A stretch of 64,000 nucleotides of DNA from Heptranchias perlo (taxonomy: Eukaryota), in the NCBI RefSeq assembly GCF_035084215.1, contig NC_090330.1, forward strand, positions 12,648,001-12,712,000, written 5' to 3'. Positions 2,451 to 55,851 of this stretch are shown piece after piece (the stretch's first letter is position 1; each line of letters opens with the position of its first letter). Position numbers and translations under genes: made by a program. The notes beneath the pieces were generated by a model. That model made no database searches and was not told where the DNA came from. It saw nothing but the letters and a program-made list of their open reading frames with translations.

Positions 2451-3714
2451 ACTGTGGCAGACAGCCATTCGAAGGGTGCTTTTACGTTTAAGATCAGTAA
2501 GGTTGGGTAAGGAGTGATGCCAAAGCGACACATGCCACTCTCTTGCTGTGTTCCGGCCTGTATGTGCGCCCAAAGATCTGTTCAGGAGGAACATCGTATC
2601 GTGAATGGCAAGCAGCAGGCACACTGGGAATTTGATGCTGAGCCTGAGCTGGTCATCAGCGTGAAGCACTAAACCAGCTTAGGCCACAGGAGGTGGTAAT
2701 TGTTCGAACAGGTCACATATTTATACCGACAAGTGCTGTTGACAGCACGAGACCCCCGCATCTGAAGTGACAGCACTCTTGTAAAGTAAAAGCATCATAA
2801 ATGCTCCAAGACACTTCTCTTTGAAGTTCAGTGTAGCAGGTTCAAACATCTCGAGACTGGCTGAAGAAATTAGAAGCCATCCTCCAGGAACATTTTGAAT
2901 GCCAAAGATAGGGCCAGTCCCTCAAATAACCGAATCGGATGGCAAATGTTTATTATCTGCAGTGTTACCATCCGAGGTGCAACTTGAACTTGCAAGTTAC
3001 AATCATGTCAGTGCCAGCACTGGTCAAACTCAACTTCATAAGCCCCCGTTTTATCCATGCCAAGTCAGTACCAGCCAGCTGCACGTCGTACCATGATCTG
3101 TGCTTTGACAGAAAAATTTAAATCTGGAATTATGGAATCTGGTACTATTCTTCTCCCTGCCAACTTATTTTGGACAAATCTCCCATATCATTGGCGAATA
3201 CGAAGCGAGAAAAGAAAAGCAGTCGTCATGTAATGAAGTATATATGGTCACCAATACCAATACTGGGACTGAACGCACATTCAAGTAATTGTTACATTCC
3301 CCTATCAGTTTTTGATCACCAACAAAGCAGTTGTTTCAATCTAGAGCTTAAGGTTTTTTGATGTGTCACCCAAAGATTTGCTTAGCCTGAGAAAATTCCT
3401 TGGTACAAATTATTCTCCGGCAATTCCTTCTCTGAAGTTGAGCTACTGAGCACCTCACCATTATGGTATTTTTATTCTCCCTCTTTCTGGCATCTCAAAT
3501 GCAACTTCAACCCATTTCCTAGCTGAGTTATTTCAGTGACCAAGGTACTAATGTACAAAGATTGTACTTTTCAATCTCCATCCCAAAAGTTCTGAATAGC
3601 AGAAATCCAAGACTAAAAGTTTCCCATCAATTAATGTTTCTATCCAAGAGCTCGTGGGGAGTATCATTCAATTAATTTTCTCAGCTAAATAAATCTTGGA
3701 ATATTCACATGGTC

Positions 3715-5010
3715 CATCTCTTACTCTTCCCTTCCTTGACTTCTCTATCTCCATTTCTGGGGATAGGCTGGCAATATCAGTCAACCAATATCTATTATAT
3801 GCCCATCAACTCCCACAGCTACCTTGATTACACTTCCTCCCACCCTGTTTCCTTTAAGGACTCTATTCCATTCTCCCAGTTTCTCTGTCGCATCTGCTCC
3901 GATGATGCCACCATTCACACCTGTGCTTCAGATATGTCTTCCTTTTTCCTTAACCGAGGATTCCCCTCCACTGTAGTTGACGGGGCCCTCGACCGTGTCC
4001 ATCCCATTTCCGGCACTTCTGTCCTCACCCCTTCCCTTCCCTCCCAGAACCACGATAGGGTCCCCCGTGTCCTCTCCTTCCACCCACCAGCCTCCACATT
4101 CAATTGATCTTCCTCCGCCATCATCAGCACGATACCACCACCAAACACATCTTCCACTCCCCTTTCAGCATTCCGGAAGGGACTGTTATCTCCACAACAC
4201 CCTAGTCCACCCTTCCATCACAAGCGCAGGAGGCAACACCTGCCCTTTTACCTCCTCCCTTCCCACCGTCCAGGGCCCCAAACACTCCTTCCAGGTGAAG
4301 CAGCGATTTACTTGTACTTCTTTCAATTTAGTATACTGTGTTTGCTGCTCAAAGTGCAGACTCCTCTACACTGGGGAGACCAAATGCAGATTGGGTGATC
4401 GCTTTGCTGAACACCTCCGCTCAGTCCGCAAGCGTGACCCTGAGCTTCTGGTCACCTGCCATTTTAATTCTCCGTCCCACTCTGACTCTGCCCTCGGCCT
4501 CCTACATTGTTCCAATGAAGCTCAACGGAAGCTCGAGGAACAGCACCTCATCTTTCGATTACACACTCTACAACCTTCCAGACTCAACATTGATTTCAAT
4601 AACTTCAGATCATAACCACAGCTCCCATTTTTTCAGACAGCAGGTGCTGGTTATGATGTTGCCATTTACAGCTCCTCTAGACCCATCTTTTGTCTCTTTA
4701 CTTGTCCCATTATCACCCTCCTTGCCTTGCACCATCATCACTTTTGTCATTTAATCACTCCTGCCCTCCACCCTATCAGAGACCTTCCCTTTTGTTCTTT
4801 CCTCTCCTCTTCCCCACCCTCCCCCCTTGCCTGGCTCTGTACTTGCTTAAAAACTATTACAGCTTTAACTTCTTCCGGTTCTGATGAACAGTCATCAACC
4901 TGAAACATTAACTTTGTTTCTTTCTCCACAAGTGCCGCCTGACTTGAAGTATTTCCAGCATTTTCTGTTTTTAATTTCAGATTTCAAGCATCTGCAGTAT
5001 TTTGCTTTTG
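3715..5010 (+). mobile_element. Older Penelope-like element (family B), degenerate RT thumb, GIY-YIG and 3' UTR
   Basis: SHSYLDYTSSHP..KDSIPFSQF, then NLVYCVCCSKCRLLYTGET..RFAEHL..GLN-like end. Decayed hammerhead CTGATGAA..GAAAC at ~4881-4907. Confidence 0.85.
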
Positions 5011-5765
5011 ATGAGGTGTTGAGGTCAATTGTAACCCCTCACTACTGCCCCCTAACTCAACCACTGCCCTGGCTAAGATAACCAAACTCAACATTAAGTA
5101 ATTGAATTTGGGATGCTGTGATCAGAATGGCCTATTACTACAATGAACTGTGTCTTTACTCACTCCATCTTTCAGTAGCTCTTTGCATTAATTGCATTAA
5201 GAAATCCTCAAAGATTTCTGTTCTGAAGGTCCTGCTTTCAATGGGGAACCCAACGTCAGAACCATGGAGAAATCAAGTGCTTCATCCATTGGAGAGTATG
5301 CCCGTCCATCTCCTCTCTGGACCATCATTGGAAGAATAAAAGCATGTACAATTGTCCTTCAATTATGATATTACATAGAATTTACAGCACAGAAACAAGC
5401 CATTAAATCCATTTGGTCTATGCCGGTGTTTAAGCTGCACAAGAGTCTCCTCCCACTCTACTTCATCTAACTCTATCAGTGTATCCTTCTATTCCTTTCG
5501 CTTTCATGTACTTATCTAGCTTCCCCTTAAATGCATCTATGATCTGTGTGAACCATTTATATAGGATTCGCCACTCATCTGAATTCCTTTATGTACCTCA
5601 AGTGACCGATTCAGCTGTCAAATGTTTATTATCTGCGGCTGAGATATGGCACATGAGCTGATTCCTGTTCCGTATTTGCCAAGGAAATGCTTCAAATGTT
5701 CATTGCCTCCTCTGATCAACTGCATAGGGCTCTCAGATCAGGTCTCTTCAGTCTTAAAGAAACTG

Positions 5766-6000
5766 TGATATGGAGATGCCAGTGATGGACTGGGGTTGAC
5801 AAATGTAAACAATCTTACAACACCAGGTTATAGTCCAACAATTTTATTTGAAAATCACAAGCTTTCGGAGGCTTCCACCTTAGTCAGGTGAATGTCAGGA
5901 AATCCTGACATTCACCTGACGAAGGAGGAAGCCTCCGAAAGCTTGTGATTTTCAAATAAAATTGTTGGACTATAACCTGGTGTTGCAAGATTGTTTACAT
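5766..6000. mobile_element. Mini palindromic PLE family A insertion (two inverted 3' ends)
   Basis: Tail-bearing minus arm plus tail-less plus arm, centre ~5901. TSD TAAAGAAACTG at 5755-5765 and 6001-6011. Confidence 0.9.
5911..5948 (+). ncRNA. Minimal type I hammerhead ribozyme motif
   Basis: TCAC-CTGACGA-A-GGAGG/AAG/CCTCC-GAAA-GCT-T-GTGA: core boxes, stem I, stem II, palindromic AGCT stem III. Confidence 0.8.
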
Positions 6001-6558
6001 TAAAGAAACTGGAGTTTCTAATTTACACCAATGACGGATTCAGAAACTCAATGCAAATTGGTATAAGAGGCAGTGGAATCAAAGAAAGGAGCACAAAAAC
6101 TACATAAAGAGTTGGGCAAAATACCTAAGTAGGCAGAAAAATGGCAGATGAAATTTAATGCAGACAAGTGAAGGATATTACACACTGGAAGAAAAATTGG
6201 GTGACATATGAATGGCAGTGAAATAGGCAAGGATGAAGTTGAAATAGACCTAGTAGTCTTCTTAGACTTGATGTCCAACATGTCCAATCAATGCAAAGCA
6301 ACAATCAACAAAGCTAACAGAATGTTGCACTACATACCCGGAACAGCAGAAATACAAGTCAGAAGAAGGCATGATCAAAACTGTATAATGCTCTGGTCAG
6401 ATCGTATCCTAAATGCTGTGACCAGTTCCGGTCATCAAAACATAAGGGAAACATTCAAGTATTGGTGCAAGTGTAGAAAACAGGCATGAGGCTGATCCAC
6501 AGTGTCAAAGATCGGAGTTGAAGTTTGAAAAAGCTTCAAGGCTTTTCAGTCTTGAAAG

Positions 6559-9901: not shown

Positions 9902-10288
9902 ACCTTTCTCACTGATCTTACTGAAACATCACCATACCCATCGCTCTCCATAGCACTAATTGTAGATTCTACACTGTGAGAAAGGTAAACTTCAACTAGC
10001 TTTTAAATGTCATGATTCCAAGGAGAACCTGCAAACAAATGCGAGGAAAAAGAAATCAACATTCTGCAACTGCTTTCCCATCATTTAGAAGCATCTATTC
10101 AAGGCACTGCATCTCCCGTTATAAAACTGTTGAAAAATAAATTTAACAACTTCACAGCACAGTTGAGCATAGCTAAAATTACTCCTGCTTTAATAAAGAA
10201 TAAAAATGCCAAACAGTGTTTTAAATATAGGATGCCTTTCAATGAATTATCAAACTCATTAAGGAGCTACCAGGTAACAATTTTCTTT
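9902..10288. repeat. 387-bp direct duplicate of 13147-13533, inserted in an old minus-strand CR1 fragment (~9705-10700)
   Basis: Matches at constant offset 3245 with no difference seen on reading. Confidence 0.92.
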
Positions 10289-11298
10289 GAACTTTGAACT
10301 TCTATTAGATCCCTCTTTAAACTTTTCTGTTCCAATGAACGCAGTTCTCATATCTATATCCTCATGTCCTTGGCAAATCTATGTCGGACTTTTTCCATGA
10401 TTTCAATATCCTTTCTACAATGGATTGCCCAAAACCGCACATAGTATTTAAACCGTGGCCTAACCAAAGCCTTTTACAGATTCACCATCAACTCTGGATT
10501 CAATGCACAAAAACCCAAAATCCCATTTACCTTTTTTTTTAAAAAAAATAGCTTTTCCATTTGCAATCAAGGTTATAAAAACCTGTTTATTTACATCACT
10601 AAGTCTCTCTGGTCTTCCAATCCATTGAGAATGTTATCATTTAAGTTATAATTCCATTCTTTCCACATTTTACTAGTCCCCCAATATGTCTTATGTTCTC
10701 TAACATGCATTGTTACAATATCTTCTTGTGCATGGGCAGCACTGTAGAAATGCAAGTTATTTGTAAACTTATTCAAATCATGTATAACTGTGCTACAATG
10801 TGAACAATATGTGGAGCGAAGTTATGTTGTATCTGCCATGACAAATTAAATTTTGCTTAACCAACACTAATACAGCTGTAGTGGTTGTGCAAACTTGTTG
10901 AAAAATTCCTCAACAATTGAAAATGGAGTCTTCAGTATTTAGTTTTTAAAACAACAATTTTACACTATCATCCGTAAATGCCAGTTCAAATCTCCAAAAG
11001 TTTAAACTTTAGTACAAAGATGTAAAGTTATGAAAAATTTGCCAGAAATATGTGCATGCAATCATAAAAAGTTAACAAAATTTAAATCAACTTCTAAAAA
11101 AATGCAAACATTTGAATTGGTGATGTTGGAAATAATTGATCTTTCCCAATTTCTGTAGGTCTGTGCAATGCAGACAATATTTATGTTTGATGTATAGGTA
11201 CAAAATAATTAAATAAACAAAGAGCCAACTGATGTTACCTGTTTACAGCTAGTCATTTTTGGAGTCCTGCTCTGTACCCTTATACTACTATGGGAGGT

Positions 11299-13148: not shown

Positions 13149-13273
13149 CTTTCTCACTGATCTTACTGAAACATCACCATACCCATCGCTCTCCATAGCA
13201 CTAATTGTAGATTCTACACTGTGAGAAAGGTAAACTTCAACTAGCTTTTAAATGTCATGATTCCAAGGAGAAC
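13149..13273 (-). other. Candidate internal exon (125 nt) of the gene starting at the 19-kb CpG island (probably NIPA2 5' region)
   Basis: Minus-strand acceptor TTTCTTTTTCCTCGCATTTGTTTGCAG|G and donor AAG|GTAAGG. Contains a short uORF (MTFKS*) and an ATG open to the donor (MESDGYGDVSVRSVRK). No homology recognised. Confidence 0.5.
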
Positions 13274-15829
13274 CTGCAAACAAATGCGAGGAAAAAGAAA
13301 TCAACATTCTGCAACTGCTTTCCCATCATTTAGAAGCATCTATTCAAGGCACTGCATCTCCCGTTATAAAACTGTTGAAAAATAAATTTAACAACTTCAC
13401 AGCACAGTTGAGCATAGCTAAAATTACTCCTGCTTTAATAAAGAATAAAAATGCCAAACAGTGTTTTAAATATAGGATGCCTTTCAATGAATTATCAAAC
13501 TCATTAAGGAGCTACCAGGTAACAATTTTCTTTTGGTTTCTTCTTTCTTTTAAAGCATGTATGTTTAACCACATCAGGAATAATGGGATTTAACATTATT
13601 TTGGGTGTATTGCTGCTAACAGGGTACGTGCCAATAAATAGCAATCCTGCAGTGCAGAACTTATAATACTACCAGGTCTGTTTTGGAAGCAATCTCTTTT
13701 TTTTGTAATGCAGCAGGTATTTTTCATTCAATCACCCTCATCATTAATATGGGATAACAGAGACTGGAGTGCAGTTCAAGTTAGGATCACGTCAATGATT
13801 GCAATGAGATGCAAGTACATTGATTTCCCACCCCCCCCAAACCGGCAGGGCTTATCTGAGGTTGGGGCTAAGGCCAGTTTATCACTCGAGTACAGAAACT
13901 TTTCCTGATCTTCACTATAAATTTTAGTTTGCTTCACTGTATCACTCTCTTTTATAACCAACTCTCAACGAACAACACATTCAAGGAACTCCAGTGAGAA
14001 TGAAAACTACATTCATAATCCATGTATTGCACTTAATTATTGAGGCCAAGTATGAGGAGACTATTGTCCTAACTGTATTATCTGCGACATGGGATTACTT
14101 AATGACAACTCTGGAGAGTGTTCCCATTCCCCAGAACTAACTTCCTTAGAGAGCACCAAATTCACAGAAAGTTCAAGGTATAAATAATATACACCGGACG
14201 ACTGTTAGTGCTTTCAGAAAGTTTTGCCTGAGGCAGATGACTTTGCAGACAACAGTGGCTTTTTGACCAAATCGCCTGGTTTGAGATGGAGTAATATTAC
14301 GTTTTATTTTACTGTGCACTACAGGAAAATAACAAACCCTGTATACAAGACAGTAAGGCACTCTAGGACTCAGATGGCATTGGTAAACCTTTGAATTTTG
14401 TTCTATTTATGTTATCAACGTTAAGATGTGTTTCTGGCATGTAACACACACCTATGTATTCATTAAGCCGTAAATTAAATACATTTATTAACCTCTAGAT
14501 ATCACAGAATACCTTAGTTATTATGCAATTGCACCCTTTTAGTAAATCCAGCAAAGTACAGGAATGTTGTGTTAAACCCCTAGGTTGCCATCATTTCTGG
14601 CACACTCCACAGCAACAGATTTAAATAGAAACTTTCCAGTATTTAATCATCATCTTGTATAGATTGTATAAAACAAAAACACAAGTCCATTTCAAGGGTG
14701 AAACACATCTCAGGATTGATACGAGATTTACTGCACAACCTGATGTATAAGTTGCATCATTAATCTTTAGCTGCGCTTTAAAATATGAGTGCCAGCTTAT
14801 ATAGTAGACAACTTAGCACCTTTTTAACATTATTTTACATATTTATTGATATCATTTTCCTCAATGTCACACATTTTCCTCACATGGTATTAGGAAGAGG
14901 TTATATTAGTGTATCTGTACATCTCCCTCAAATTCGTTTCAAACACACTGCAAAGTATCTATTATTCTTTAATAAATATTTAACACGGTGCTCCCTGTTA
15001 ATCTGGTGGCAAGCACTGCTCACATGGTGCTATTGATCTTTGGGTTAAAATGCCACCAACTGTGCCATTTTGACACTGCTCAATCTTTGCAACTATATTG
15101 ATATAAACACATCAAAAAGGAAACAATTATAAACACTAACATACTGAAAATATCTGGAATTTCTTTGTGTCACTCATTCCAATAAATAATTTTGTGAAGG
15201 TCTTGATTTCTAAACATCCAGATATTCCAGTTTCAAGCAGTCACTCTGATTTGTCTGAGTTACCAACTACAATCCTAAGAAATGAGCTTTAATATAGTAA
15301 ACATATATGATATATAATATTCAAAATAAAAGATACTGAAGAATTAATTAAAGGCATTAATCAACCCTCAGGGCTCAGAAAATAGTCATATGCCACTCAA
15401 GCTTTGACTTGCAGTTTCTGAATTATGCCCTCGTACTCTACTTTGCAGTATTATGTATTTATTCTATAGTAAAGCCCTTGGCATAAGTTCAGTTTTTTTG
15501 TCAATTCATATAATCCTGCTCTAGGTTGAATTTTAATCAATCACTTTAAAAGTTACAGTGAACTACCGTCTACTCCTGATAATTCTGGGTTTTTTTTTGC
15601 ACTAAAAAATTTGAATGATCCAGTTGAATTACCAATGTAAATACAGAATTGTGGGAATTTCAGTATTAAAGAAATTGCATTTTGAGATCATTTGAGTTAA
15701 GCAACTTTGAACTTGAAACAAACTTGCATTTATTTGGCACCTTTCACAAGCTCAGGATCTTTCAAAGTGCTTCACAGCCAATGAAGTACTTTTGAAGTGT
15801 AGTCACAGTTGTAATGTAGAATAATGGTG

Positions 15830-16750: not shown

Positions 16751-17318
16751 CGGGGAACACTTCAGCAGTCAAGGACATTCAGCCACCGACCTTCGGGTAA
16801 GCGTACTCCAAGGCGGCCTTCGAGACACACGACAACGCAAAATCGTCGAGCAGAAATTGATAGCCAAGTTCCGCACCCATGAGGACGGCCTCAACCGGGA
16901 TCTTGGGTTCATGTCACGCTACACGTTACCCCACCAGCGAACAAATGTTATCTGTTTTTAATATAACGGGTCAGTTGCTGTCTTTTCTATGTTTCTACCT
17001 CTCTATCTGTTTTTCTTTGTTTGTTGTTTTTTTTGGTGATTTGTATATTCTGAGACCTGGCAGGTAACACCTGTCTGTCTGCACACTGATTGCCTTGGCA
17101 TCAGGCAGTTGAAAAAACTGTCTGTTATCACCAAGCATTGTTCTGTGAATTATAAATGCGACTTCATTTTGAGGATTTCATTTCCACATCGTTCACCTGA
17201 GGAAGGAGGTAGCCTCCGAAAGCTTGTGAATTTAAAATAAAATTGCTGGACTATAACTTGGTGTTGTAAAATTGTTTACAATTGTCAACCCCAGTCCATC
17301 ACCGGCATCTCCACATCA
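16751..17318 (+). mobile_element. 5'-truncated PLE family A with hammerhead (CTGAGGA..GAAA, ~17192-17230) and tail
   Basis: GEHFSSQGHS..GLNRD. CAAAATATGTTAC repeated at 16723-16735 and 17317-17329. Confidence 0.92.
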
Positions 17319-18879: not shown

Positions 18880-19535
18880 GAACACTGTGGACGGGTGGGC
18901 TGGACGGACGGACGGACCGACGGACGGATCGACGGCCGGCCTCCTCCTCCTGCCTCACGCCGTGTTATGGTGTGACTGAAGTCGGTGAAAATCCAGCTCC
19001 CAACAGCCGATGACAGTAAATGTTCTCGCCCCCCCCGCCGCAGACAACCGGGCGAACGGACCTCGGATCCCCGCCACTTTCTTTCCCCCGCCTCTCCATC
19101 GATTGTGAATCGACTCTCGGGATCGATCCCCCCCCCTCCTCCTCCTCCAGGACGCCTCGGGGGTGTCGTGAACCGAGCAGAGACCGGGCCTGTTCGAGGC
19201 GTCGCCTCGGCCAGCGACACCGACTCTTTCCTTCGCGCAATGCCGCCCTTTCAAACCGCCTAGTGCCGGGGGTGGGCGGGGCCTGATTGCCCGGAGCTGT
19301 TATTTGCATTGGCGCTGACGTTACTTACCGCCTGTCCCCGCCGGTGCCGCCCGCTGTCTCGCTCCTCATCCTCTCTCTCTCTCTCTCCCCGCTCCGCTCC
19401 CACCTCTTCACGGATCGCAGCAAGGGAAACAACAGACCGCGTTAAAGAGAGGCCCCGCCCTTCCCTTCAGTGCCTGCTCCGCCTGCAGTAGCGCCACCTG
19501 CCGGCGGGGAGGCCAATTTTGCTGCGTGTCGGCTC
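18880..19535 (-). promoter_or_regulatory. CpG-island promoter and first exon (donor GCG|GTAAGT at 19329/19328) of a minus-strand gene, probably NIPA2
   Basis: Dense CpG in an otherwise CpG-poor region. GC boxes (GGGCGGGG ~19274, CCCCGCCC 19453-19460) and a consensus donor. Gene identity is inferred only from NIPA1-NIPA2 tandem synteny in other vertebrates. Confidence 0.7.
19489..19505 (-). promoter_or_regulatory. CTCF-like motif
   Basis: GCCGGCAGGTGGCGCTA matches the CTCF core consensus and sits at the CpG island edge next to the repeat cluster. Confidence 0.6.
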
Positions 19536-19576
19536 ATTTCTGTTCACGCAAGAGTTTTAACATAGAATGATACTCA

Positions 19577-19911
19577 TGATGTGGAGATGCCGGTGATGGA
19601 CTGGGGTTGACAATTGTAAACAATTTTACAACACCAAGTTATAGTCCAGCAATTTTATTTTAAATTCACAAGCTTTCGGAGATTTTCTCCTTCCTCAGGC
19701 AAATGTTTCAAGATCTCCTTGAAGCCTACCTTCACAAGCTTTCGGAGATTTTCTCCTTCCTCAGGCAAATGTTTCAAGATCTCCTTGAAGCCTACGGAGC
19801 CTTCAAGGAGATCTTGAAACATTTGCCTGAGGAAGGAGAAAATCTCCGAAAGCTTGTGAATTTAAAATAAAATTGCTGGACTATAACTTGGTGTTGTAAA
19901 ATTGTTTACAA
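19577..19911. mobile_element. Mini palindromic PLE family A with an internal 66-bp tandem duplication (three hammerhead motifs)
   Basis: ATAGAATGATAC repeated at 19562-19573 and 19911-19922. Unit repeated at 19665 and 19731. Plus-arm hammerhead at 19822-19860. Confidence 0.9.
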
Positions 19912-19928
19912 TAGAATGATACAGCACA

Positions 19929-20415
19929 GATGTAAGGTATCTTACAACACCAGGTTATAGTCCTGATGTGCAGATGCCGGTGATGGACTGGGGTTGACAA
20001 ATGCAAACAATCTTACAACACCAAGTTATAGTCCAACAATTTTATTTGAAAATCACAAGCTTTTTGATTGTGATTTTCAAATAAGCTTGTGATTTTCAAA
20101 TAAAATTGTTGGACTATAACTTGGTGTTATAAGATTGTTTACATAGGTTATAGTCCAACAGTTTTATTTGAAAATCACAAGCTTTCGGAGGCTTTCTCCT
20201 TCGTCAGGTGTAGTGTGGGATTCCTTGAAATTTATCGCATATATCGACAGAGATCAATGCCTGGTGATTACAGATAATCTTTCCAACTGCCCGTTGTCAC
20301 GGCAATCAGACAGAGAGACATTAGGTACAAGACTACTGGATATACAAACGGCCAGAACCAAAGACAGAGAGAGAGAGAGAGAGAAACATCCGAAAGGAAG
20401 AGAAAGAGAGAGAAT
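19929..20415 (-). mobile_element. PLE family A 3' UTR fragment (tail-less), interrupted by a mini palindrome and itself inside a CR1 3' end
   Basis: Homologous to 107-440. Hammerhead on the minus strand at ~20175-20210. CR1 tail resumes at GAGGCCATTCGGCCC, ~20416. Confidence 0.8.
19964..20144. mobile_element. Mini palindromic PLE family A (arms end before the hammerhead)
   Basis: TSD AGGTTATAGTCC at 19952-19963 and 20145-20156. Confidence 0.88.
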
Positions 20416-20883
20416 GAGGCCATTCGGCCCACCGTGCCTGTGGCCGGCTCTTTGAAAGACCTATCCAATTAGTACCATTCCCCCAATAGCCCTGCAAATT
20501 TCCCCCCTTCTAGTATTCCACCACCCTTTCAGGCGGTGCATTCCAGATCATCAAAAAAAAAATTCTCCTCATCTCACCTCTGGTTCTTTCACCAGGAGGA
20601 GGTTGCTGAAATAAATGCTGGAAATGCAATGCCAGCAGAGTTTTCAGTGCGACCCTTTGTCAGTCTGGCCAGTTCTAACCAAAACATTTATTTGCGACTC
20701 ACTGTTCTGATGCTCTTTGATGATTGCTTTAATGCCCCTATCATCTTTTTACCATGGACATAGATTTACTGTACACCTTGCTCCCACACCAGGAGGAGCT
20801 CTGGGGCCTCCCGTGATTTCTCAAATAGTGGTCCAACAAATCCCCACCCATCTTCTTCGCTTGTCTGAACTTATTTTCAACTT

Positions 20884-20977
20884 TTGTAAACAATTTTACA
20901 ACACCAAGTTATAGTCCAGCAATTTTATTTTAAATTCACAAGCTTTCGGAGATTTTCTCCTTCCTCAGGCAAATGTT
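20884..20977 (-). mobile_element. Solo tail-less PLE family A end with hammerhead
   Basis: TTTCAACTT repeated on both sides. Confidence 0.8.
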
Positions 20978-21096
20978 TTCAACTTGAACAACTAATTTCT
21001 CCAGATAAGAGGTGTTGCTGTGGGAACCAGCAAGTAGTCCCAACTGCACTGTCTTTTTGTAGGATACATGTAGGGCAATCTTTGTTTCAAATCTAC

Positions 21097-21224
21097 ATTT
21101 ACCTGAGGAAGGAGGAAGTCTCCGAAAGCTTGTGAATTTAAAATAAAATTGCTGGACTATAACTTGGTGTTGTAAAATTGTTTACAATTGTCAACCCCAG
21201 TCCATCACCGGCATCTCCACATCA
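21097..21224 (+). mobile_element. Solo tailed PLE family A end with hammerhead
   Basis: CAAATCTAC repeated at 21088-21096 and 21223-21231. Confidence 0.85.
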
Positions 21225-21929
21225 AATCTACTCAGCATCCTCCCTCCACCTTTCTTTTTTACATTGATGCTTGCTGTCACTCTGATATTGAGAATTTCAT
21301 TAATTACGCTTCTAGTTTCCCCCCATCAATCACTTTCATGTGGTCCATGTCTGACCCTTCCCTTCCTGGACTTTTCCTTTTCTATCTCTGATGATGGGCT
21401 TTCCACAGAAATCTATTAAAAGCTCATTGATTCCCACAACTACCTGGAGCATAATTCTACCCAGCCTGCTTCCTGTAACGACTCCATGGCTTTCTCCCAG
21501 TTTCTCCATCATCGTCGCATCTGCTATGATGACTCCATCTTCCACACCAGAGCCTCTGAAATGACTTTTTTTCTCAATCGAGGTTCCCCCTCCACGATGG
21601 CCAAGGTTATCCTTGAGTGTATCCATTCCATTTCCTATACCCCTGTTGTCACCTCCTCCCCCTCCTCTCACTAGAACAGGATATCGCACCTTCCACCCCA
21701 CCAGCTTCCATATTTGCCAGATCATTTGTCACTTACACTGCTTATAACATGATCTCACCACCAAGCACATCTTCCCCTCCCCATCCCTCTCCACTTTCTG
21801 GAAGGAACTTTCCCTCCACAATATACTTGTCCACTTTTCCACCACCCTAACTTTCCACCTTCCCCTACCACTTTCCCATCTAACTGCAGAAGGTGCAACA
21901 CTTATGTTCAAAAGGGTTAGGAGCATTAT

Positions 21930-53600: not shown

Positions 53601-53667
53601 GCAGAAGATCACTAGCCAAGAGCATTTGGTCGGATGAGGAGCTGAGAGAGAGGACTAGTCTTTAAGG

Positions 53668-55851
53668 ATGTGTCTGGTCTTGGCCAATGCGTTCCTTTGG
53701 ATTCTGACAGTGGGGACAGTTGATGCGGGGCTTCAAGTGCCAAGTGAGGATGGTCTGACCGAATGTAGGAAGATTCAGAACTTGATTGCCCTTGAAGTTC
53801 TGCCTGGAGGAGGCTGGGACAATCTGAGAAATTTGGACCGGGGGCGAGTGATGAACATCAGCTACTCGCAGTGTAAAACCACCAAGGACGGTATGTACTT
53901 CATTCCAGACCAGGTCTACGTGGTGCCCCAGAAGCAGACCAGCATCGATATCGTGTCGGAGATGATCGAGAGCTGGCTGACCTACAAAAGCTCCACCAGC
54001 GCCTCGGTCAACGCTGAGGTGTCCTTCCTCTCCTTCTTGAACGGGAAGTTCTCCTGGGACAGCGAGAGGGTCAAAACTCACCAGGTGCATGACCGTAGCG
54101 TGACCACCAGAATCCAGGTGAGGAACGTCATGTACGAGATCATGTCATTGCCCAATTTCCAACTGGACGAGGGCTTCAAGAAGCGGCTGATTGAGATAGC
54201 CAACTACATCGAGAACAACCAGACAAGAGCTGCCAATTACTACTCCGAGTTGCTTGTTCGTAACTATGGGACCCACTTGTTGACTGGTGTCCATGCCGGG
54301 GCCAACCTGCTGCAGGAAGACCAGGTGCGATCGATCTTTGTGTCAGACAGCTGGAGTCGGAAATCCTCCATCACTACCTCGGCTGGAGTCACCTTCTTCC
54401 ACACAGTAAACGTAGGACTCGGCAGTCGAACCGAAACCATGGACGAGTTCACCAGGCTGTATATCGGGAACAGGTCCCACTCCAGGATCGAGAACAACGG
54501 CGGGCTCCCCTTTTATCCCGGGATCACCCTGCAGAAGTGGCAGCAGGAGATCTTCAACCAGCTGGTGGCCATTGACAGATCAGGTCAGCCTTTGAGTTTC
54601 TTTGTCAGCCCGGAGACCGTCCCTGAGCTCCCGGAGCCCACGGTCAAGAAGGTCTCCCAGACCATCGAGCGAGCCATCAACCTCTACTACACCGTCAACA
54701 CCCACCCGGGCTGCTTGGATCTCCAGTCCCCCAACTTCAACTTCAAGGCCAACATCGACGACGGGTCTTGCAAGGAAATGGGCACCAATTTCACCTTCGG
54801 CGGCCTTTACCAGGAATGTTCCATGCTTTCAGGGGCAAACGCCCAGCCCCTATGCCAAGCCCTGGAGCAGAGGAACCCCCTGACAGGGTCATTCAGTTGC
54901 CCCTCCGAGTACAAGGCCATTCTCCTGCATACGGGAGTGAAGGAGGAAGCTTACAGCCAGTACGAGTGTCACCGGAGCTGCCATTCCTGTTGGCTCATCT
55001 TCAGCTGCTGCCATGACGTGTGCGGAGACGTGTATCATGTGCGCAGAGCCCAGTTCAAGGCATACTGGTGCGCAGCTATGGGCTCGGTGCACCAGTCCTC
55101 GGGCTACCTCTTCGGCGGCCTCTACAGCGCCAGCGTCGGGAACCCACTGACCCAGACCCGCTCGTGCCCTCCATCCTTCTATCCGCTGGGCCTCTTCCGA
55201 GACCTGAAGGTCTGCGTGAGCGACGACTATGAGATGGGGTTCCGCTACTCCACGCCTTTTGGCGGCTTCTTCAGCTGTGAGGTGGGCAACCCCCTGGTCG
55301 ATCATCCCGGCGTCCAAGGCCCAGGGGGGCTGCAGAGCTTCATGCAGAAGCAGCCGAGCCCCTACCCCAAGAGGTGCCCCAAGGGCTACAGCCAACACCA
55401 AGCTGTCATCAGCGATGGGTGTCAGATACTCTATTGTGTGAAATCCGGCACCTTTGATGGAGTTCAACTGGCCCCCATCAATCTGCCCCCATTCACACGG
55501 GCCCCTCTTCTGACCAAGGGTTCCATCAGCACAGTGGCTGTCCTGTCTGAGTACCAACAGCCTTGGGTCAAGGACACCAAGACCCAAATGTGGAGAATGG
55601 CCCAAGAGTCAGAAATCCGTCAATTATTTAGCGAGACCTCATCCTTGTCCGGAGGGGCCACGGCTGGCATCTCCATCACCGTCACCCTGATCTTGGCGGG
55701 TTTGATCGCCCTCGCTTTCTACGGTACGAAGCGTTGGAGAAACCGGAGCTACCAAATCCTGGAGAGGTACTCGGTGCATTCCAACTACGGCACGGCAGAA
55801 CACCAGGACACAGCTGATTTGTGTCCGCCAACTCAGAATGGTGATGCCTGA
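53668..55851 (+). CDS. MPEG1: Macrophage-expressed gene 1 protein (perforin-2), intronless, 727 aa
   Basis: Signal peptide, LEVLPGGGWDNLRN, MACPF signature YGTH..G, AIDRSG.PL, Cys-rich P2 domain (NPLTG..SCP, FGGFFSC..GNP), TM helix, YQIL tail motif. Confidence 0.97.
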   Translation: MCLVLANAFLWILTVGTVDAGLQVPSEDGLTECRKIQNLIALEVLPGGGWDNLRNLDRGRVMNISYSQCKTTKDGMYFIPDQVYVVPQKQTSIDIVSEMIESWLTYKSSTSASVNAEVSFLSFLNGKFSWDSERVKTHQVHDRSVTTRIQVRNVMYEIMSLPNFQLDEGFKKRLIEIANYIENNQTRAANYYSELLVRNYGTHLLTGVHAGANLLQEDQVRSIFVSDSWSRKSSITTSAGVTFFHTVNVGLGSRTETMDEFTRLYIGNRSHSRIENNGGLPFYPGITLQKWQQEIFNQLVAIDRSGQPLSFFVSPETVPELPEPTVKKVSQTIERAINLYYTVNTHPGCLDLQSPNFNFKANIDDGSCKEMGTNFTFGGLYQECSMLSGANAQPLCQALEQRNPLTGSFSCPSEYKAILLHTGVKEEAYSQYECHRSCHSCWLIFSCCHDVCGDVYHVRRAQFKAYWCAAMGSVHQSSGYLFGGLYSASVGNPLTQTRSCPPSFYPLGLFRDLKVCVSDDYEMGFRYSTPFGGFFSCEVGNPLVDHPGVQGPGGLQSFMQKQPSPYPKRCPKGYSQHQAVISDGCQILYCVKSGTFDGVQLAPINLPPFTRAPLLTKGSISTVAVLSEYQQPWVKDTKTQMWRMAQESEIRQLFSETSSLSGGATAGISITVTLILAGLIALAFYGTKRWRNRSYQILERYSVHSNYGTAEHQDTADLCPPTQNGDA

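What the first reader, a model, noticed from the sequence alone, without database searches (positions are those of the whole stretch)
19665..19795. Two hammerheads in tandem, 66 nt apart, on one strand next to a CpG-island promoter
Seen: the tailed arm carries an exact duplication (units start at 19665 and 19731), so the minus strand reads TTTGC-CTGAGGA-AGGAGAAAATCTCC-GAAA-GCTT-GTGAA twice. Established: minimal PLE hammerheads have a very short palindromic stem III and cleave efficiently as dimers. Inference: this layout allows an intramolecular dimer through AGCU/AGCU pairing. Double cleavage would release a 66-nt RNA that could circularise, like a nascent micro-retrozyme. It lies ~150 bp upstream of the promoter and on the same strand as that gene.
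Basis: partly seen in the sequence, partly recalled or inferred. Interest (0 to 1): 0.72.

Follow-up and report, generated by a model that had tools for sequence, protein, structure and literature searches.

The report
Stuttered end of a Penelope retrotransposon
The two back-to-back ribozyme motifs are in the assembly, but they lie inside one short, young insertion of a very common jumping gene, were likely doubled by a copying slip during insertion (as at dozens of other sites in this genome), and are predicted to be blocked from cutting by a neighbouring mirror-image copy, so this is ordinary.

Summary
The exact 65-nt repeat (period 66) is there, and each unit holds a minimal hammerhead motif. 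It lies inside one 337-bp Penelope-like element (PLE) end-fragment insertion (19574-19910), which has a 12-bp target-site duplication and a head-to-head inverted arm. The arms match a full-length relative at all but 2 of 338 bases. The same 39-nt hammerhead occurs 7,606 times in this genome. Close same-strand pairs occur 54 times, nearly all with their own junction; this junction occurs once. Arrays of 3-4 units exist at 7 loci, 2 of them with a broken core, so doubling does not need an intact ribozyme. The dimer can be drawn, but it is predicted to cost 81 kcal/mol with the inverted arm present and 12-16 without it. The tandem lies behind the promoter, which reads away from it. The 66-nt product would lack both sites where this family's insertions begin. 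Most likely it is an inert reverse-transcriptase jump-back product. PLE-derived hammerhead dimers are already in print as 'non-LTR retrozymes' (1 of 9 tested cleaved). This scan reached the same verdict on two other genomes.

The parts
19562..19573 (+). Left target-site duplication, 12 bp
   Evidence: Identical to 19911-19922
19574..19730 (-). Tailed arm of the PLE terminal repeat (pLTR): from 27 nt upstream of hammerhead stem I to the ORF ATG
   Evidence: 157 nt, 1 mismatch (the junction base 19730) to the subfamily copy L105 that runs into the ORF
19665..19703 (-). Minimal hammerhead B (core CUGAGGAA at 19698; predicted cut after 19670, triplet CUU)
19731..19796 (-). Extra 66-nt unit A (the duplication)
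   Evidence: 0 mismatches to L105; junction found once in the genome
19731..19769 (-). Minimal hammerhead A (core at 19764; predicted cut after 19736)
19670..19735 (-). 66-nt piece that double cleavage would release (predicted, not observed)
19798..19912 (+). Untailed inverted arm with a third hammerhead (19822-19860); complementary to 19613-19727 (99%) and 19731-19793 (98%)
   Evidence: I3, I9; 1 mismatch to L105
19911..19922 (+). Right target-site duplication (its first 2 bases also fit the arm)
19926..20310 (.). Older nested pieces of the same PLE family: an inverted pair (19964-20144) inserted into an older pLTR copy, with a 12-bp duplication at 19952-19963 / 20145-20156
18900..19600 (-). 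CpG island with a likely non-coding first exon ending at 19329 (donor GTAAGT); probably the promoter of the NIPA-family gene left of the window
   Evidence: the link to the coding exons is inferred

Best explanation
The tandem is part of one young, 5'-truncated Penelope-like retrotransposon insertion, and it likely arose when the element's reverse transcriptase stopped 27 nt upstream of the hammerhead, jumped back 66 nt and copied the same stretch again; it is predicted to be inert. Shown: insertion boundaries, target-site duplication, identity to an intact RT-encoding family, the inverted arm, and many unrelated tandems of the same kind. Inferred: both target strands were primed, one at the family's 'tail' start site and one at the site about 35 nt upstream, which gave the tailed and untailed arms joined head to head. 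The tailed arm stopped twice at the same place (units begin G-GTAGG and C-GTAGG), with no microhomology and one non-matching base at the junction. Predicted: a minus-strand read-through RNA makes the inverted arm first, which zips up one hammerhead in a long duplex, so the two cannot pair with each other.
For: TSD and boundaries. 2 mismatches in 338 nt to L105, both at junctions. The same 39-mer lies in 3,081-bp head-to-tail arrays with an intact 902-aa RT ORF. 7,606 exact copies of this hammerhead plus 34,430 of a non-overlapping sister pattern. 54 close tandem matches and 93 at period 44-74, with varied junctions. Of 28 distinct tandem loci fetched (30 of the 54 matches, this locus included), 24 have an inverted arm, and 23 of those 24 carry the tail on one arm only (motif-based). 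22 of 22 close pairs among the first 100 motif places are head-to-head inverted. 2 of 7 arrays with three or more units repeat a unit with a broken or missing core. Some tandems join units of different subfamilies (L017, L021), which points to template jumps. Masking costs 81.4 kcal/mol. The architecture is described in PMC8557442 and PMC3846280 (passages), and two internal RT start sites with both strands extended in PMC11167929.
Against: The mechanism is read from sequence anatomy alone, and DNA-level slippage after insertion is not excluded. Tandems of the hammerhead half (93) outnumber tandems of a motif 23 nt downstream (24). I attribute this to where arms end, but the two motifs cover different subfamily sets, so the control is loose. 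A few junctions recur at unlinked sites with different flanks (L144/L145; L011/L017/L146). Folding energies omit core tertiary contacts and protein help (the Anolis PLE hammerhead cleaves only with its protein, PMC11167929), and I ran no known active dimer as a positive control.
Confidence: 0.85

Rival explanations
1. Nascent micro-retrozyme. A transcript starting inside unit A, past the inverted arm, would fold into a double hammerhead, cut twice and release a 66-nt RNA that circularises.
For: The nested dimer can be drawn and the cores are intact. Stems I and II hold across 45 distinct variants (88% of cells paired; slid controls 31-50%). Several inverted copies fold back at ACATT just before stem I, about 33 nt after a TATA box in the full element. 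This hints at a start site that would skip the arm, and a TATA/Inr pair is described for rotifer pLTRs (PMC3846280, passage). The locus abuts a CpG island.
Against: The TATA box is absent from this insert: both units begin a few nt downstream of it. Even without the arm the dimer lies 12.3-16.5 kcal/mol above the ensemble, and 13 of 24 other tandem pairs score better. Stem I has two G-U pairs. The CUU triplet is a weak one (recalled). The junction is single-copy, and the piece lacks both insertion-start sites. 8 of 9 comparable dimers did not cleave (bioRxiv 10.64898/2026.07.22.740005).
Confidence: 0.05
2. The duplication arose in DNA after insertion, by replication slippage or repair at the cruciform-prone inverted repeat.
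For: The unit ends at the tip of a 63-115-bp near-perfect inverted repeat. Most fetched tandems also sit in inverted inserts, and several have 2-8 nt of overlap.
Against: The match is 65 of 66 nt: no microhomology, and one base that the locus cannot supply. Chimeric tandems at other loci need two templates. The insert is too young to show any internal substitution.
Confidence: 0.07
3. The duplication is an assembly error at a hairpin.
For: Complex PLE inserts are known to trouble assemblies (PMC8557442, passage).
Against: Clean TSD, a one-base difference between the units, and dozens of analogous structures with different periods, some joining different subfamilies.
Confidence: 0.03

Closest known systems
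EN+ Penelope-like elements, Neptune/Nematis type: tandem/inverted 5'-truncated pLTR insertions with a 30-40-bp tail (PMC8557442, PMC3846280; passages read)
   Same: TSD, head-to-head inverted truncated copy, tail on one arm only, hammerhead in the pLTR; parent ORF with RT and a CX4CxxC linker
   Different: The tandem unit is only 66 nt, lies at the 5' end of one arm and holds no ORF
Minimal type I hammerheads of metazoan PLEs (Cervera & de la Pena 2014, PMC4209133; abstract, results and discussion read)
   Same: Extra nucleotide between 9 and 10.1, G10.1-C11.1, short stem I, palindromic 15.2-16.2; inverted pairs 100-700 bp apart already noted there
   Different: 5-bp stem II and a CUU cleavage triplet; this family has not been assayed as far as my searches show
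Non-LTR retrozymes as defined by Li, Clavereau & Pollet 2026 (bioRxiv 10.64898/2026.07.22.740005; abstract to discussion read, supplements closed)
   Same: Two or more tandem units, each with a full type I hammerhead; unit size inside their 51-972-bp range; pLTR origin; found in a chondrichthyan too
   Different: Single locus, no amplification, embedded in an ordinary PLE insertion with a masking arm
Expressed metazoan retrozymes of coral, mussel and axolotl (Cervera & de la Pena 2020, PMC7229834; passages read)
   Same: Tandem hammerhead units that could act as dimers
   Different: Those have canonical hammerheads, about 300-bp units, arrays up to 62-mers and abundant circular RNA; none of this is shown here

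Membership tests
Penelope-like element (EN+) terminal fragment | Identity to the pLTR of an element with a single RT-bearing ORF | tested here: met
   2 mismatches in 338 nt to L105; 902-aa ORF with RVT_1 E 3e-10 in 3,081-bp tandem copies
Penelope-like element (EN+) terminal fragment | C-terminal GIY-YIG endonuclease | tested here: inconclusive
   Pfam reported only RVT_1; a WYIGET motif and downstream R/H/E residues are seen by eye (motif recalled)
Penelope-like element (EN+) terminal fragment | TSD, inverted 5'-truncated copy, tail at one end | tested here: met
Neptune/Nematis clade | CX2-5CxxC zinc-finger linker between RT and EN | tested here: met
   CHGNLCKTC in the ORF; definition from PMC8557442
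Neptune/Nematis clade | RT phylogenetic placement | not tested
   No reference PLE set was fetched
Minimal PLE hammerhead | CUGANGA(N) / GAAA core, G10.1-C11.1, palindromic stem III, NUH site | tested here: met
   Rfam has no match at E<=1, so the call rests on the motif, not on a covariance model
Minimal PLE hammerhead | Stems I and II kept across variants | tested here: inconclusive
   88% paired, 4 of 10 pairs with two-sided changes; shuffles reach the values 24/500 and 117/500 times (covariation score 6/500); slid controls 31-50%. Variants were selected by a core regex, and some are junction-truncated
Minimal PLE hammerhead | Self-cleavage as a dimer | not testable with these tools
   Only folding energies
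Non-LTR retrozyme | [quoted passage not shown] | tested here: met
   their TRF and MFE filters were not rerun
Non-LTR retrozyme | Unit spread to other loci or expanded in arrays | tested here: not met
   The junction 27-mer has 1 match in G000; none of the 7 arrays of three or more units uses this unit
Non-LTR retrozyme | Hammerheads free to fold in the transcript | tested here: not met
   Predicted only: 81.4 kcal/mol penalty with the inverted arm, 12.3-16.5 without
Non-LTR retrozyme | Accumulation as linear and circular monomer RNA | not testable with these tools
   Only contigs of guessed-RNA runs were available

The most novel reading that the evidence does not exclude
PLE reverse transcriptase, a telomerase relative, reiterates at the 5' boundary of its template and writes 2-4 copies of a 44-80-nt hammerhead unit in a single insertion. 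This seeds dozens of ready-made hammerhead dimers per genome, the birth step of retrozymes. This locus is one caught at birth (probably still polymorphic) at the edge of an open CpG island, where an internal start in unit A skips the masking arm and yields one of the smallest ribozyme-made circles (66 nt).
Probability: 0.05. Interest if true: 0.65.

Novelty: new member of a known kind. Interest (0 to 1): 0.17.

Why it matters
As an inert by-product it matters little. It does caution that pipelines calling any hammerhead dimer an 'active retrozyme' will count such insertion stutters. The genome-wide set (54-93 matches, 7 arrays) is the more useful result. It suggests that short pLTR tandems can be made during insertion itself, not only by later unequal crossover as the 2026 preprint discusses, and it gives a list of natural dimers to assay, several better placed than this one. 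My two searches for this reiteration or for shark PLE hammerheads returned no paper on them, but the library is partial. If the insertion is polymorphic beside the promoter, an allele-specific effect on the NIPA-family gene is testable.

Tried and rejected
Rfam: no hammerhead family matched; only sub-threshold miRNA hairpin hits caused by the inverted repeats.

Sequencing runs: no RNA holder listed; four runs are RNA by guess only. All are contigs of one sample. In one search no listed piece spanned the 19730/19731 junction in one DNA run or three guessed-RNA runs. In one search the two guessed-RNA runs showed no cover at 19402-19563. Tables were cut and a hole proves nothing, so neither is used as evidence.

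5' ends at the predicted cut site, as a footprint of cleavage in vivo: 0 of 36 fragments in 600 kb of arbitrarily chosen DNA (nearest 2 nt off; BLAST ends are blurred by subfamily divergence). In one search, 4 of 93 tandem junctions leave the element right at the cut site, by eye. No enrichment is seen.

Junction from a cleaved fragment: rejected, because the junction lies 5 nt past the predicted cut.

An amplified mini-retrozyme: the one junction seen 10 times is a passenger in a larger repeat. The 5 of 10 copies fetched were 97-99.7% alike over about 2.07 kb in the four pairs compared, and its core is broken.

Fold-back copying of the first cDNA as source of the inverted arm: rejected, because that arm lacks the duplication.

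tblastn with the upstream NIPA exons found no second NIPA exon inside the window. The protein atlas gave 'NIPA2' only at 0.89, a lead.

Luense et al. 2017 (PMC5785218) is not held; I saw only its title in a reference list and a review's summary. One search returned an unrelated paper. No earlier notes exist for this genome.

Full report
Observation. The window has an exact 65-nt direct repeat at 19665 and 19731, period 66; the 66th base differs. On the minus strand each unit carries a minimal type I hammerhead: stem I UUUGC/GUGAA, core CUGAGGA plus one extra A, stem II GGAGA/UCUCC, then GAA, the palindrome AGCU and the cleavage base U. These features match the description of PLE minimal hammerheads in PMC4209133. 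Rfam has no matching model. Across 45 distinct variants from fetched loci the two stems are 88% paired against 31-50% for slid controls, with 4 of 10 pairs showing two-sided changes; the shuffle controls are only modestly exceeded.

What it belongs to. The tandem lies in one insertion, 19574-19910, flanked by a 12-bp duplication. The insertion is a tailed arm (19574-19730, minus), the extra unit (19731-19796, minus) and an untailed inverted arm (19798-19912, plus) holding a third hammerhead. The three parts differ from subfamily copy L105 at 2 of 338 bases, both at junctions. The same 39-mer occurs in 3,081-bp head-to-tail arrays with an intact 902-aa ORF that has an RT domain and a CX4CxxC linker. 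That is a Neptune/Nematis-type PLE by the criterion in PMC8557442; the GIY-YIG domain is seen by eye only and no tree was built. The host is likely a cartilaginous fish (recalled resemblance of its repeats; not tested).

How common. G000 (3.25 Gb) has 7,606 exact copies of this hammerhead and 34,430 of a non-overlapping sister pattern. There are 23 motifs in 600 kb of arbitrarily chosen DNA and 10 in this window, so being near a promoter needs no special cause. Among the first 100 listed places, all 22 close pairs are head-to-head inverted. Same-strand pairs with a 15-45-nt gap match 54 times, and 93 times at period 44-74 with a looser pattern. This locus's junction matches once. Arrays of three or four units occur at 7 loci, and in 2 of them the repeated unit has a broken or missing core. 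Of 28 distinct tandem loci fetched (30 of the 54 matches), 24 have an inverted arm and 23 of these carry the tail on one arm only. The only junction found ten times is a passenger in a larger repeat (5 of 10 copies checked). Against my reading, two unlinked insertions with different flanks share one junction (L144, L145) and three share another (L011, L017, L146). Short AT-rich overlaps, and the mixed-subfamily units of L017, favour independent recurrence, but a shared dimer-bearing template is not excluded.

How it was likely made (inferred). Arm 3' ends in 30 subfamily loci fall at a short site (14) or a tail site (11); 4 run into the ORF and 1 ends elsewhere. This fits the two internal RT start sites and the extension of both target strands shown in vitro for an Anolis PLE (PMC11167929). 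Here one strand was primed at the tail site and the other at the short site. The tailed cDNA stopped 27 nt upstream of stem I, resumed 66 nt back with no microhomology and one unmatched base, and stopped again at the same place. The inverted arm lacks the duplication, so it is an independent copy. The junction lies 5 nt past the predicted cut, so it does not look like a cleavage product.

Could it work? The double hammerhead is nested and would release 66 nt (19735->19670). With the inverted arm in the same RNA the active fold is predicted 81.4 kcal/mol above the ensemble: the arm pairs with one hammerhead and leaves the other alone in a loop. Without the arm the penalty is 16.5, or 12.3 if the RNA starts at 19771; 13 of 24 other tandem pairs score better. 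These energies omit tertiary and protein effects, and there was no positive control. In print, dimers and trimers of a schistosome minimal hammerhead cleave weakly (PMC4209133), 1 of 9 Xenopus dimers cleaved (bioRxiv 10.64898/2026.07.22.740005), and the Anolis ribozyme needs its protein and is dispensable for insertion (PMC11167929). The released piece would lack both start sites, so it would have no known handle for the element's RT.

The promoter. A CpG island spans about 18900-19600, with a minus-strand donor after 19329. Bin depths in a guessed-RNA run fit one contig of depth 26.0 covering 19329-19359, ending at that donor. NIPA-family coding exons begin about 24.7 kb further left on the same strand. 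The label NIPA2 rests on recalled sequence and gene order, and the exon link is not shown by a spliced read. The gene therefore reads away from the tandem. Read-through from the upstream NIPA gene (last coding exon 32845-33537) would make the masking arm first. Divergent transcription would read the plus strand, which has a single hammerhead. The one open route is a start inside unit A. The full element has a TATA box about 33 nt before an ACATT where several inverted copies fold back, but the TATA box is not part of this insert.

Age. In two DNA runs of one sample, a 461-nt contig lies on 19147-19561 and carries 46 further letters that do not continue into the insert. That is the length and left-aligned break expected of an empty allele running to about 19956, 30 nt into the next repeat. 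I did not see those letters, so polymorphism is an inference.

Verdict. A real but ordinary product of PLE insertion. It meets the operational two-unit definition of a non-LTR retrozyme in the 2026 preprint (whose supplements I could not see and which may list such loci), fails the amplification test, and is predicted to be masked. Two earlier notes of this scan on other genomes reached the same kind of verdict; I did not check them. Interest 0.17.

Noticed in passing
G000 genome-wide; L009-L038, L131-L138: PLE insertions with 2-4 reiterated 44-80-nt units at the 5' end of an arm. The same junction repeats within a locus (e.g. L034 3x59, L135 4x70, L138 3x70), which is reminiscent of telomerase-like reiteration.
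   Followed up: partly
L144:390-663 and L145:418-693 (both contig C14, about 19.7 Mb apart): Two insertions with different flanks share an identical 51-nt tandem junction: independent slips or a shared dimer-bearing template.
   Followed up: partly
inverted inserts in L009-L038: In 23 of 24 inverted inserts the tail is on one arm only and the other arm starts about 35 nt upstream, consistent with two RT start sites used on opposite target strands.
   Followed up: partly
window 19147-19561 / 19911-19956: A 461-nt read contig in two DNA runs fits an empty allele, so the insertion is probably polymorphic at the promoter edge.
   Followed up: partly
L149:305-3010 and 3386-6091 (-): Head-to-tail full-length PLE copies, period 3,081 bp, each with an intact 902-aa ORF: an apparently active family.
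   Followed up: partly
window 19926-20310, 20879-21224, 17086-17318: Nest of further pLTR fragments around the promoter, including an insertion into an older pLTR at GGTTATAGTCC; similar self-targeting appears in L023 and L038.
   Followed up: no
window 32845-35775 (-) and L039:796-1560 (-): Two NIPA-family magnesium transporter genes in tandem on the minus strand (40% identical over 179 aa); NIPA1/NIPA2 labels are recalled.
   Followed up: partly
window 53659-55848 (+): 730-aa single-exon ORF with a signal-peptide-like start, resembling MPEG1/perforin-2 (recalled resemblance, not tested).
   Followed up: no
window 10016-10294 and 13261-13590 (+): Two stretches about 3.2 kb apart translate identically over about 90 residues: a local duplication.
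   Followed up: no
window 4881-4905, 21388-21411, 29351-29376, 37917-37938 (+): Hammerhead-like cores of other, older PLE families with different stem II sequences.
   Followed up: no
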